IMG/VR virus record: IMGVR_UViG_3300045988_154277
From: a virus
Reading direction: 5' to 3' (one strand)
DNA length: 64,000 nucleotides
Positions within the stretch are counted from its first letter, which is position 1; each line of letters starts with the position of its first letter. Positions 17,450 to 19,347 of the stretch are shown in pieces. The notes beneath the pieces were generated by a model, which had not been told where the DNA came from, did not search any database, and was given only the letters and a program-made list of their open reading frames with translations. Made by a program: the position numbers and the translations under genes.

Positions 17450-19347
17450 TCATTGGGTTGATCTCACCGGATACAACTGGTGCGGATGGCCTAATGTTGT
17501 TGTTATCATAGCGTTTGCTCGTTAGACAAACTATTCTCTACGTTTCCGTAGATGTTCGGACTATCTTTCAATCCTTATGACTAAGGACAACCGGTCTTTG
17601 GAACACACTTGTGTTCTACTCAGCGTTTCAGCATGATAGTCTCTGATCCTTCTTCCTGGTAACAGGAAGCTTGGAAGCTGATATCCCATTATTACTTCAT
17701 AAGAAGTCTGATCCTTAGCACCATGTGGATACATGGCTTTTATTTCAGCATAGATCATATCAATCATTCTTTCTGCTTTCGCGACTATCACGTTCATCCT
17801 TACGGATCCCGTTGTAGTTGATTGATCTCTTAGGGTATCCCAGCCGTTAACACGGTTTATGCAGCCACAGTGTTACCACTATAGCGCCCCCATACACACC
17901 AGTCATGTGTGAGAGGTAGAGCCAAGATACTTTCAACCACCAACTGAGACGGGTGTGCCTTGAGGAGTGCGACAGGCATATTCCGTCCACCTGTTGTCGA
18001 TTTGGTTTCTGTATTCTCCAGTGAGCGAAATCTCTTCGTGAGTACAGTCAGAAGACTATTGTCGTTGCAAATCGTTGGATTCGCACGGAACACGGAGTTC
18101 GCCATCATCCAGCTCTCTCCTTGAGAAGCTGTGGTGACGAATCGTTTCACCGTATCCGGTGTCAATCCTTCGTTCTTCGCATTGATCACTCCGAAAAGCT
18201 TCGTATTGATTGACGACACCAATGGTGCCATCAACTGACTCAACGAACCGATCTTCTTAGAGAACAAGTTCGTCGGTTCGTAACTGACGATCCACCGATC
18301 GATGTTGTAGAACACCTCTCGGAGAAGTTCGTAGATGCCGTTGACTTGGATGCCGATCGTAGCCAACTGATACTGTGCCGGTGGGTCCAGCAAAGTCGCA
18401 GTGGTCTCAAGATGCTTCTCTGCATTGTCGTAGAGCAGCTGAGCATTCGTAGTACTCGGATAGGTGTATTTGCCTAGCACGGTCTTGTAATAGACCGGGT
18501 GGGTCGCTATCAAATCACGTAATCCGAATCTCGTATACTCAGTGAGACACATCAGGTAAGATGCGATCACCCTTCTCTTGAAGAGATCGTCAAGACAGGA
18601 GTTGTGAACCTTAAGGTAGATATCTTCTCTGATCTCGATGTGAGAGTACTCGTTCGACTCTTCCATCTTCGGTACCAAGGAGATCTCTCCAGGCTGAAAC
18701 CCATAATACTGCATCGTCTTATCGAACGATAGTTCGACCAGATGATACAGGATGATTGGGGTAACACCAGCCTTCTTCCCGCGTCCTCTCTTTCCTTGAT
18801 GGATCTTCACTGTGGGTACGATCTCACGACATACTCTGCCGTCAGTCGTTGTGAAGACGAACTGCTCTGATCTTCTGAAAGTCAATGGTGCACGCATGAC
18901 TTTAATGATCAGACCATCTTGGATACGATGAAGACCGCCGCGCTCTACGATGGCGAACATCGGGAAATATTGCGTGTCGGATAGGATCACCGCTCCATGA
19001 TCCAGATAAGGGATACTGATGTGCAGTGGGTATTGCACATTTTCGAACTCGAAGATGAACTTCAACTGTTCGAATGAACTCTTCTGGATTTGGATCTTCT
19101 TCTTCAGGATCGTGTTGTTACGGATATACTCGATACGCTCGTCAGGAGTTAACCGTTGATACCCAATATAACGTAATCGACCTTTGAAAAGCTTTACTGA
19201 TTCTTGGAACATCACATCGAGATAATCAGGTATCTTCTTAATACTGTTCTCTCTGAAGTGAAGGAGGAAGTCGTCGTTGAAATCCGGGAGCAGATCACTT
19301 GCTCCGATCAGGACATTCCTCAGTACTGGATTGAAATGTTCATCCAC
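17450..19347 (-). CDS. RNAP beta subunit N-terminal fragment, interrupted by a group I intron (exon 1 19347..17905, exon 2 17506..17450)
   Basis: LRYIGYQRLTPDERIEYIRNNTILKKKIQ aligns to E. coli beta [43 protein letters not shown] aligns to the fork-loop [10 protein letters not shown]. Exon 1 ends on codon CAU (ends in U). The ORF-track reading frame runs on into the intron. Confidence 0.6.
17507..17904 (-). ncRNA. Group I intron A (about 398 nt, no ORF)
   Basis: Homologous to the introns at 40872..41286 and 59203..59606. Shares UGAAAUAAAAGC and the GAAA-capped P4/P5 region (GGUCGAAAGAC-like). Has P7-like GAUCAGAGACUA and a UUAGUC partner. Hairpins carry compensatory changes relative to copy B. 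Ends ...GCUAUG. Confidence 0.6.

What the first reader, a model, noticed from the sequence alone, without database searches (positions are those of the whole stretch)
17450..17904. Homologous group I intron near the 3-prime end of the RNAP beta N-terminal gene, leaving only a 19-codon second exon
The minus-strand sequence 17904..17507 is homologous to the beta-prime intron. Shared elements include UGAAAUAAAAGC[hairpin]GUGCUAAGG, the GAUCCGNAAGGAUG and GUCGCGAAAGCAG helices, a P7-like GAUCAGAGACUA, and a P9 CAUCUACG-GAAA-CGUAGAG. Homology starts inside what the ORF track calls the C-terminus of the 496-aa beta-N ORF (...DWCVWGRYSGNTVAA*). That tail is therefore intron read-through, and exon 1 ends at ...ALPLTH (CAU). 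By analogy to the other two copies, the intron ends ...GCUAUG at 17507, and a short exon 17506..17450 would add ITTTLGHPHQLYPVRSTQ. The insertion point corresponds to the beta fork-loop region ([10 protein letters not shown]-like [10 protein letters not shown]).
Basis: partly seen in the sequence, partly recalled or inferred. Interest (0 to 1): 0.8.

Follow-up and report, generated by a model that had tools for sequence, protein, structure and literature searches.

The report
Group I intron in phage RNAP β-N gene

Summary
The element is real: a group I intron on the minus strand, one of three homologous copies in the window. The boundaries given in the finding are wrong. A 97-99% identical intron-less contig lacks exactly 17913..17490 (424 nt). 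Exon 1 therefore ends ...ESILALP (CCU, 17914). The intron ends ...CAUUAGG (terminal G at 17490).

The spliced product is 515 aa and ends ...PPSAPVVSGEINPM...HVFD, the tail that about 75 of 92 homologue clusters carry. The splice sites obey group I rules: U-1 in a U·G pair, a terminal G, and one guide sequence (AUGGGGG) pairing both exons.

Across 26 family members, 91% of modelled pairs form (67% in shuffles) and 44 of 57 pairs change on both sides. A same-site orthologue shows 12 fully compensated pairs.

Rfam misses this copy, but a homologous intron 9 nt away in orthologous genes scores 83 bits. The intron has no endonuclease ORF. Intron-plus, intron-less and neighbouring-site alleles coexist in one phage population.

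Introns in phiKZ-like RNAP genes are already known, so this is a new member of a known kind. Splicing itself is inferred, not shown.

The parts
17914..19347 (-). Exon 1 of the RNAP beta-N gene (478 codons, ends ...ESILALP, last base U 17914)
   Evidence: ORF. PHROG 2943 'polymerase'. phiKZ gp123 / PDB 7OGP_E. Boundary from the intron-less allele L004.
17490..17913 (-). Group I intron, 424 nt, no ORF with a recognisable domain; begins CUCACACAU..., ends ...CAUUAGG (terminal G at 17490)
   Evidence: Absent from the 97-99% identical contigs L004/L005. Structure model. Covariation.
17376..17489 (-). Exon 2: 37 codons PSAPVVSGEINPMIQVDMETGFFIIPSWYKEISHVFD plus stop (17378..17376)
   Evidence: The frame is open. 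It is identical to the C-terminus of the intron-less P0001 and conserved across homologues.
17857..17913 (-). Intron-encoded read-through tail of the called 496-aa ORF (LTHDWCVWGRYSGNTVAA plus stop)
   Evidence: The tail is variable among alleles and absent from intron-less homologues.
17887..17893 (-). Internal guide sequence AUGGGGG. GGG(G) pairs exon-1 CCU (U·G wobble at the splice site, P1) and intron C1-U2. AUGG pairs exon-2 CCAU (P10).
   Evidence: Read directly from the sequence. The guide sequence and both exon contexts are conserved in orthologue L135 but not in intron-less alleles.
17894..17910 (-).
17861..17887 (-). P2 hairpin, 11 bp, GUAA loop
   Evidence: Four consecutive fully compensated pairs in orthologue L135. 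Family counts, helix 1.
17853..17857 (-). P3 5' strand AACCG (pairs with 17593..17589 CGGUU, directly 5' of P8)
   Evidence: Own-versus-cross duplex test across 26 introns, p<1e-4. Copy 2 has AACCUUC/GGAGGUU at the same place.
17840..17845 (-). P4 5' strand GGCUGG (pairs with 17681..17676 UCAGCU, the classical Q element)
   Evidence: (helix 2).
17694..17835 (-). P5 (CCC/GGG) and a large P5 extension. It contains an 8-bp stem AUCAAUCA/UGAUUGAU, a three-way junction with GUAA and GAAA hairpins, the A-rich bulge UGAAAUAAAA, and two further hairpins.
   Evidence: The Rfam alignment of relatives places this block inside P5. Helices 3-12 are 83-100% paired for helices of three or more pairs, with changes on both sides. 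Coordinates.
17647..17675 (-). P6 (UCC/GGA) and P6a hairpin (CUUCCUG-UUAC-CAGGAAG)
   Evidence: (helix 13). The loop varies UUAC/GUAA in the population.
17635..17641 (-). P7 5' strand GACUAUC within the classical R element GAUCAGAGACUA (pairs with 17565..17559 GAUAGUC, the S element)
   Evidence: (helix 14, 97.7% paired; GACUA/UAGUC, GAGCA/UGCUC and other compensated variants).
17572..17634 (-). Segment between the P7 5' strand and P7': P7.1/P7.2 region (hairpin AACAC/GUGUU), P3 3' strand, and P8 hairpin UCCUUA-GUCA-UAAGGA
   Evidence: The P8 closing pair is compensated in L135. P7.1 is not clearly defined.
17513..17552 (-). P9 (UCUACG-GAAA-CGUAGA) and P9.1 (GUUUG/CAAAC)

Best explanation
This is an ORF-less group I intron (424 nt, window 17913..17490, minus strand) in the gene for the beta-N subunit of the phage's non-virion multisubunit RNA polymerase. 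Inferred mechanism, from the established group I pathway: in the pre-mRNA the intron folds into the P1-P9 core with a large P5 extension. Its guide sequence AUGGGGG pairs the last exon-1 bases CCU, putting U17914 in a U·G wobble. A free guanosine attacks after U17914. The guide then pairs CCAU at the start of exon 2 (P10), and exon 1 attacks after the terminal G17490. The ligated mRNA encodes a 515-aa protein ending ...ESILALP|PSAPVVSGEINPMIQVDMETGFFIIPSWYKEISHVFD. Unspliced RNA would give the 496-aa product with 18 intron-encoded residues that gene callers report. Shown here: exact presence/absence against intron-less alleles, restoration of the conserved protein, splice-site rules, and conservation and covariation of the fold. 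Inferred: catalysis and splicing in vivo. Mobility is unexplained because there is no endonuclease gene. It may depend on an endonuclease supplied in trans, on reverse splicing, or on recombination between co-infecting relatives.
For: (1) Contigs L004/L005 are 99%/97% identical on either side and lack exactly 17913..17490. (2) The spliced product is 515 aa and equals the intron-less P0001 except V260M. About 75 of 92 homologue clusters carry the same ...P.S.P..G.IN...HVFD tail. (3) U at -1, G at the 3' end, and one guide sequence pairing both exons. Among population variants position 423 is G or A while the terminal G is fixed. (4) Five synonymous differences within 12 nt of the junction separate the intron-plus allele (GCU CUA CCU|CCA UCC) from the intron-less allele (GCA UUG CCA CCU UCC). 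The -1 A>U change creates the U·G wobble and the +3 U>A change completes P10. Both site-1 intron alleles share this context, while intron-less alleles vary. (5) Family covariation over 26 sequences: 91.2% of cells paired against 67.1% shuffled and 30-38% slid, 44/57 pairs with changes on both sides, 0/500 shuffles as high. P3 test p<1e-4. (6) Same-site orthologue L135: 12 fully compensated pairs and repair of the one C·A mismatch. (7) Link to the curated family: relatives L003 and L035 align end-to-end to Rfam RF00028 at E about 1e-7. The L125 intron, 9 nt away in the orthologous gene, scores 83.4 bits, E=2e-20. It is homologous to copy 3 (E=1e-17), which is homologous to this copy (E=4e-14). 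(8) Relatives sit between the halves of split nrdE and DNA polymerase III alpha genes in other phages.
Against: Rfam RF00028 gives no match to this copy even at E<=10, probably because of the roughly 140-nt P5 insertion. There is no transcript or protein evidence of splicing. For phiKZ itself, the predicted introns in RNAP genes showed no splicing in one long-read transcriptome study (PMC10914365). P3 is short (5-6 bp), J3/4 is long (7 nt), and P7.1 is not clearly formed. With no endonuclease ORF, how the intron arrived or spreads is unknown.
Confidence: 0.9

Rival explanations
1. One reading: a group I intron spanning 17904..17507, with exon 1 ending ...ALPLTH and an 18-19 codon exon 2 (ITTTLGHPHQLYPVRSTQ).
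For: ACACAU/GUGUGU forms a helix with a U·G pair, and ...GCUAUG ends in G.
Against: The intron-less allele defines the 17913/17490 boundaries. No homologue contains LTH or ITTTLGHPHQ, whereas the 37-aa alternative is conserved in the family. Orthologue L135 has a 6-nt deletion and substitutions inside the supposed exon.
Confidence: 0.01
2. A decayed, non-splicing intron remnant. The phage would make a truncated 496-aa beta-N, and the downstream 37 codons would be a dead relic.
For: No direct splicing evidence. No Rfam hit for this copy. No endonuclease ORF. Predicted phiKZ introns were not seen to splice.
Against: Exon 2 is intact and has the same amino acids as the intron-less allele, with only synonymous changes at the junction. 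In the diverged orthologue L135 exon 2 stays open and conserved, and the intron shows 12 compensated pairs, which indicates selection on the fold. Population substitutions avoid or preserve pairs. The allele is on at least 24 contigs from many samples, some about 280 kb long.
Confidence: 0.06
3. The two coding pieces are joined or used by a non-intron route, such as translational bypassing, an intein, or a separately translated 37-aa peptide.
For: None specific. This is only the general fact that a conserved ORF is interrupted.
Against: The insert has stop codons in all frames and no intein-like ORF. Exon 2 has no start codon or ribosome-binding site in its frame. The insert has a covarying group I fold.
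Confidence: 0.01

Closest known systems
Group I intron carrying HNH endonuclease gp210 in a virion-RNAP beta gene of Pseudomonas phage PhiPA3 (Birkholz et al., Science 2024; PMC11620839)
   Same: A group I intron interrupts a highly conserved stretch of a split multisubunit RNAP beta-type gene in a phiKZ-like jumbo phage. Alleles with and without the intron exist among relatives.
   Different: The PhiPA3 intron encodes an HNH homing endonuclease, lies in the virion RNAP gene and sits at a different motif (after two conserved Asp residues). This one has no ORF and lies in the non-virion RNAP beta-N (gp123-type) gene. No sequence comparison with the PhiPA3 intron was made here.
Predicted intron/endonuclease insertions in phiKZ genes gp56, gp72, gp179 (cited in PMC10914365)
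   Same: Insertions in phiKZ-family RNAP genes. The sibling copy 2 in this window lies near the N-terminus of the gp71-73 homologue.
   Different: The phiKZ insertions carry endonuclease ORFs, and splicing was not detected in that study. gp123, the homologue of the gene studied here, is not reported there as interrupted.
Rfam RF00028 Intron_gpI, as represented by the L125 intron in the orthologous gene (83.4 bits)
   Same: Same core: AAUUGCUGG (J3/4-P4), AAUCAGCAGC (Q), GUUCA.CGACUA (R), GAUAUAGUC (S) and a P9 GAAA hairpin. It is demonstrably homologous through copy 3. It restores the same conserved C-terminus.
   Different: It is inserted 9 nt downstream (after ...LPPSA), is 315 nt long with a shorter P5 extension, and passes Rfam's threshold while this copy does not.
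Classical phage group I introns of subgroup IA (T4 td, nrdB and nrdD; Staphylococcus phage Twort nrdE and orf142) - from general knowledge
   Same: Phage origin, insertion in conserved enzyme genes, extra helices between P7 and P3' (P7.1/P7.2-like), an in-frame stop soon after the 5' splice site, and relatives in nrdE and DNA polymerase genes of Gram-positive phages.
   Different: Subgroup membership was not tested with subgroup models. The large P5 extension with an A-rich bulge is not a textbook feature of subgroup IA. It resembles in layout, not in demonstrated homology, the P5abc extension of the Tetrahymena intron.

Membership tests
Group I intron | Removal restores an uninterrupted, conserved reading frame | tested here: met
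   Intron-less contigs L004/L005 lack exactly 17913..17490. The spliced product is 515 aa, equal to P0001 except V260M, with a conserved tail.
Group I intron | 5' splice site follows a U that forms a U·G wobble with an internal guide sequence (P1) | tested here: met
   Exon 1 ends CCU (17914). It pairs with GGG of AUGGGGG (17893..17887), and the helix continues into the intron and a 6-bp extension. The context is conserved in orthologue L135. The pairing is read from sequence, not probed.
Group I intron | Intron ends in a G (omega G); P10 between the guide sequence and exon 2 | tested here: met
   ...CAUUAG-G at 17490. The preceding base varies G/A in the population while the last G is fixed. 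L135 has a 6-nt shorter tail that still ends in G. Exon-2 CCAU pairs with AUGG of the guide.
Group I intron | Conserved core helices P3-P8 (P4-P6 and P3-P9 domains, P3/P7 pseudoknot) supported by covariation | tested here: met
   91.2% paired against 67.1% shuffled, 44/57 pairs changed on both sides, 0/500 shuffles. P3 (p<1e-4). Orthologue L135 has 12 compensated pairs. P8 was tested only through L135 and by eye. P7.1 is unclear.
Group I intron | Classical conserved sequence elements P, Q, R, S including the P7 guanosine-binding helix | tested here: met
   AACGGCUGGGA (P), UAUCAGCUUCC (Q), GAUCAGAGACUA (R) and GAAAGAUAGUCC (S). Which pair binds G was not determined.
Group I intron | Match to Rfam RF00028 at the gathering score (50 bits) | tested here: not met
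   No match for the window at gathering score or at E<=10. Homologues score 42.9, 42.1, 37.2 and 32.1 bits, and L125 scores 83.4 bits. Homology from L125 to this copy goes through copy 3.
Group I intron | Guanosine-dependent self-splicing | not testable with these tools
   Needs in vitro transcription with GTP/Mg2+, or transcript data.
Mobile (homing) group I intron | Intron-encoded homing endonuclease | tested here: not met
   The only internal ORF is 78 aa, overlaps the core and has no Pfam match. Other family members do carry ORF insertions after P6.
Mobile (homing) group I intron | Presence/absence polymorphism among close relatives, with altered exon sequence around the site | tested here: met
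   One 90%-identity cluster holds 496-aa (this intron), 515/503-aa (no intron) and 493/505-aa (intron 9 nt downstream) alleles. Clustered synonymous differences at the junction.
Subgroup IA (IA2-like) group I introns | P7.1/P7.2 helices between P7 and P3' | tested here: inconclusive
   41 nt lie between P7 and P3', with one clear hairpin (AACAC/GUGUU). The alignment is unreliable in this segment. No subgroup models were available.

The most novel reading that the evidence does not exclude
The three homologous ORF-less introns in the RNAP genes (beta-N, beta-C, beta'-N; the first two shown here to be non-virion RNAP homologues) may be more than passengers. Production of the polymerase for middle and late transcription would depend on three splicing events, which could act as a timing or GTP-sensing checkpoint. 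Alternatively, the intron-adapted exon codons and allele diversity at two sites 9 nt apart could reflect an endonuclease-driven competition or incompatibility system between co-infecting gut jumbo phages, as shown for PhiPA3 gp210.
Probability: 0.1. Interest if true: 0.6.

Novelty: new member of a known kind. Interest (0 to 1): 0.3.

Why it matters
It corrects the gene model of an essential polymerase subunit. Gene callers and a public record (DAG42965.1, 'hypothetical protein') end the protein 18 residues into the intron and drop a conserved 37-residue C-terminus. It shows that this abundant gut jumbo phage needs RNA splicing to make its non-virion RNA polymerase. It shows that two adjacent positions in one conserved motif are alternative intron sites within a single phage population. 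It also exposes a widespread phage intron lineage (over 118 viral contigs) with a large P5 insertion that the standard Rfam model largely misses. None of this changes what is known about how group I introns work.

Tried and rejected
Rfam on the window at the gathering score and at E<=10 found nothing.

I first read the UAUGSUGAAAUAAAAGC block as J3/4-P4-P5, and the triplets flanking it as P3 or P4. The Rfam alignment of relatives showed the block is an insertion within P5 and that P3/P4 lie upstream, so those names were dropped.

An alternative P3 for copy 1 (GUGUU/AACAC) was considered. I rejected it in favour of AACCG/CGGUU, which sits directly 5' of P8 and matches copy 2.

MAFFT could not align the P7.1-P8 segment, so P3 was tested by a duplex permutation test instead. 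P8 was tested only through the orthologue.

A covariance model of the whole core was not built, because a model of more than 300 positions exceeds the calibration limit.

Profile comparison (hhalign) and a C-terminal HMM against E. coli RpoB found nothing, so the placement on canonical beta motifs remains pattern-based.

The intron-internal 78-aa ORF and neighbouring small ORFs have no endonuclease domain. phmmer of the beta'-N ORF against the PDB found nothing.

The two remaining large protein searches were not spent on the sibling copies, so their junctions are inferred only.

Full report
**What is there**

On the minus strand, the 496-aa ORF 19347..17857 is a phage RNA polymerase subunit. 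It matches PHROG 2943 and PDB 7OGP chain E, phiKZ gp123, the beta-N subunit of the non-virion polymerase. The E-value is 2e-11 with the single sequence and 9e-29 over nearly the full length with a 44-sequence profile. The window is therefore from a phiKZ-like jumbo phage with split beta and beta' genes. The 3' end of this ORF and the DNA after it are homologous to two other stretches of the window: 40942-41271(-) at E=6e-28 and 59237-59460(+) at E=5e-12. A family HMM finds exactly these three copies.

**Where the boundaries really are**

A search with exon 1 returned 92 homologue clusters. Most are about 515 aa and end ...ESILALPPS.P..G.INP......HVFD. The best, P0001, was reported as 100% identical and 515 aa.

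The DNA of P0001's 282-kb contig (L004, and also L005) aligns at 99% identity to window 20700..17921 and at 97% to 17489..15396. Only 7 nt lie between the two blocks, where the window has 431 nt. Base by base, the intron-less allele reads GCA TTG CCA CCT TCC. The window reads GCT CTA CCT | 424 nt | CCA TCC.

The intron is therefore 17913..17490. Exon 1 ends at U17914 (...ALP). Exon 2 is 17489..17379 (37 codons), with the stop at 17378..17376. The joined product is 515 aa and differs from P0001 only at V260M, far from the junction.

**Splice-site rules**

These are read from the sequence.
- Exon 1 ends in U and the intron ends in G.
- The stretch AUGGGGG (17893..17887) pairs with exon-1 CCU, with a U·G wobble at the splice site, and with intron C1-U2. 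This forms P1.
- The same stretch pairs with exon-2 CCAU (P10).

Five synonymous differences within 12 nt separate the intron-plus and intron-less alleles, while the flanks are 97-99% identical. The -1 A>U change creates the wobble U and the +3 U>A change completes P10. A second, diverged intron-plus allele (L135) has the same exon context and guide sequence. Five intron-less alleles vary at these positions.

**Fold**

A motif from the element (TATGSTGAAATAAAAGC) occurs in more than 118 viral contigs. Distant BLAST also finds the core in gaps between split nrdE genes (Enterococcus phages), in split DNA polymerase III alpha genes (Lactococcus phages), and in the jumbo Klebsiella phage Miami.

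Two relatives (L003, L035) align end-to-end to Rfam Intron_gpI at 43 and 42 bits, E about 1e-7. That is below the 50-bit gathering score. The alignment shows that the motif block is a large insertion inside P5, and it locates P3 and P4 upstream.

The resulting model for this copy is given with coordinates. It comprises:
- P1 and its extension, P2, P3 and P4.
- P5 with a roughly 140-nt extension: an 8-bp stem, a three-way junction with two GNRA hairpins, an A-rich bulge, and two more hairpins.
- P6/P6a, P7, a P7.1/P7.2 region, P8, P9 and P9.1.

All helices are canonical except one C·A pair.

On a 26-sequence alignment, the 57 pairs lying in reliably aligned columns behave as follows:
- 91.2% of cells are paired, against 67.1% in shuffles and 30-38% when partners are slid.
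- 44 pairs change on both sides.
- The covariation score is 0.644 against 0.207.
- None of 500 shuffles reaches the observed values.

P3 lies in badly aligned columns, so it was tested differently. Each intron's own P3 5' segment pairs better with its own R-S segment than with those of other introns (mean -6.97 against -5.29 kcal/mol, permutation p<1e-4). The partner usually lies directly 5' of P8.

The strongest single test is the orthologous intron at the same site in a diverged relative (L135, 417 nt). It has 12 fully compensated pairs: four in a row in P2, three in P5f, and one each in P5b1, P5d, P6a and P8. It also repairs the C·A mismatch. Only a few loop-adjacent pairs are lost.

Seven near-identical contigs carry nine substitutions within the intron. 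All are in loops or junctions, or turn A-U into G·U. Position 423 is G or A, while the terminal G is constant.

**Link to the curated family**

Rfam gives no match to this copy, even at E<=10. However, in orthologous beta-N genes of relatives, another intron sits 9 nt downstream (...LPPSA|P...) and restores the same conserved tail. It scores 83.4 bits, E=2e-20, against RF00028. It is homologous to copy 3 of the window (E=1e-17 to 2e-19), and copy 3 is homologous to this copy (E=4e-14).

**Population picture**

- The exact 496-aa read-through ORF is on at least 24 contigs (the index lists 41 blocks) from many metagenome assemblies, several about 280 kb long.
- It is also in NCBI as DAG42965.1, 'hypothetical protein' of a 'Bacteriophage sp.'.
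- The same 90%-identity cluster holds intron-less alleles (515 and 503 aa) and alleles with the neighbouring-site intron (493 and 505 aa).
- The intron has no endonuclease ORF. The only internal ORF is 78 aa, overlaps the core and has no Pfam match.

**Which part of beta**

- The sibling intron in the beta-C gene (a gp71-73 homologue) has an inferred junction ...PALLSPFLQFISSQRGL|MLSSNAPQMMVV.
- From my recollection of E. coli RpoB, that junction fits ...[24 protein letters not shown].
- The beta-N C-terminus instead fits the pattern of E. coli [51 protein letters not shown]...GFLETPY. That sequence is printed, and the pattern is KRxR..L / HP[ST] / P...P / GxIN / GF...P.
- This would put the intron within the [8 protein letters not shown]-like segment.

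This placement is by eye only. hhalign and a C-terminal HMM found no significant match.

**Comparison with what is known**

- Group I introns carrying HNH endonucleases are documented or predicted in phiKZ-family RNAP genes. Examples are PhiPA3 gp210 in a virion-RNAP beta gene (PMC11620839) and phiKZ gp56, gp72 and gp179. For phiKZ, one long-read study saw no splicing (PMC10914365).
- Gut jumbo phages can carry many group I introns, and some of those splicing events are confirmed by metatranscriptomes (PMC12880540).
- This element is therefore a new member of a known kind: ORF-less, in the gp123-type gene, with a large P5 extension.

**Verdict**

Splicing itself remains inferred. Interest is modest. 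The main value is a corrected gene model and a well-documented intron polymorphism.

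Noticed in passing
window 40876..41281 (-), exon 1 41388..41282, exon 2 from 40875: Sibling intron (copy 2, 406 nt by inference) lies near the start of the beta-C gene (phiKZ gp71-73 homologue). A short 107-nt first exon starts at GTG 41388 behind an AGGAGG site. The inferred junction is ...FISSQRGL|MLSSNAPQMMVV, so the called 647-aa ORF lacks its first 36 residues. 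The boundaries rest on frame, the U/G rules and motif resemblance only.
   Followed up: partly
window 59199..59599 (+), exon 2 59600..~59788: Sibling intron (copy 3, 401 nt by inference) lies in the beta'-N gene. The inferred splice gives ...HPQILGGLGM|KMFDGDTASS..., joining the catalytic-type FDGD motif to the ORF that gene callers end at 59235. Its P3 seems to be only 4 bp (AGUG/UGCU). No intron-less allele was examined.
   Followed up: partly
L125 3935-4249; L124 ~2786-3100; proteins P0007, P0014, P0018, P0024, P0031, P0033, P0035, P0069, P0088, P0097, P0098: A second intron insertion site lies 9 nt downstream of this one (after ...LPPSA/LPPSS) in orthologous beta-N genes, including alleles in the same 90% cluster. 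The L125 intron passes Rfam's group I threshold (83.4 bits).
   Followed up: yes
L006-L123 (IMG/VR), L001-L003: A large lineage of phage group I introns shares a P5 insertion with the invariant block UAUGSUGAAAUAAAAGC. Of the five lineage members tested with Rfam, including the window copy, none reached the gathering score. Some members carry ORFs inserted after P6 (e.g. L006, L010, L016, L028, L092, L108).
   Followed up: partly
L099 1914-1988 (-), inside the intron at about 1789-2233 (-): One family member has a complete tRNA-Thr(UGU) gene (ARAGORN) nested in the P6a region of the intron. This is an unusual cargo for a group I intron.
   Followed up: partly
window 17857..19347 (-): The public protein DAG42965.1 ('MAG TPA: hypothetical protein [Bacteriophage sp.]') and dozens of metagenome gene calls carry the intron read-through tail and miss the true C-terminus.
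   Followed up: yes
window 17399..17431 (-): A perfect 9-bp inverted repeat (UUUCUUUAU ... AUAAAGAAA) lies inside exon 2, encoding GFFIIPSWYKEI. It looks like a terminator stem but lies in coding sequence and has no T-run.
   Followed up: no
window 13668..14501 (+): This ORF matches Pfam DUF7208 (E=1e-43). The same domain appears next to the beta-N gene in relative L125.
   Followed up: no
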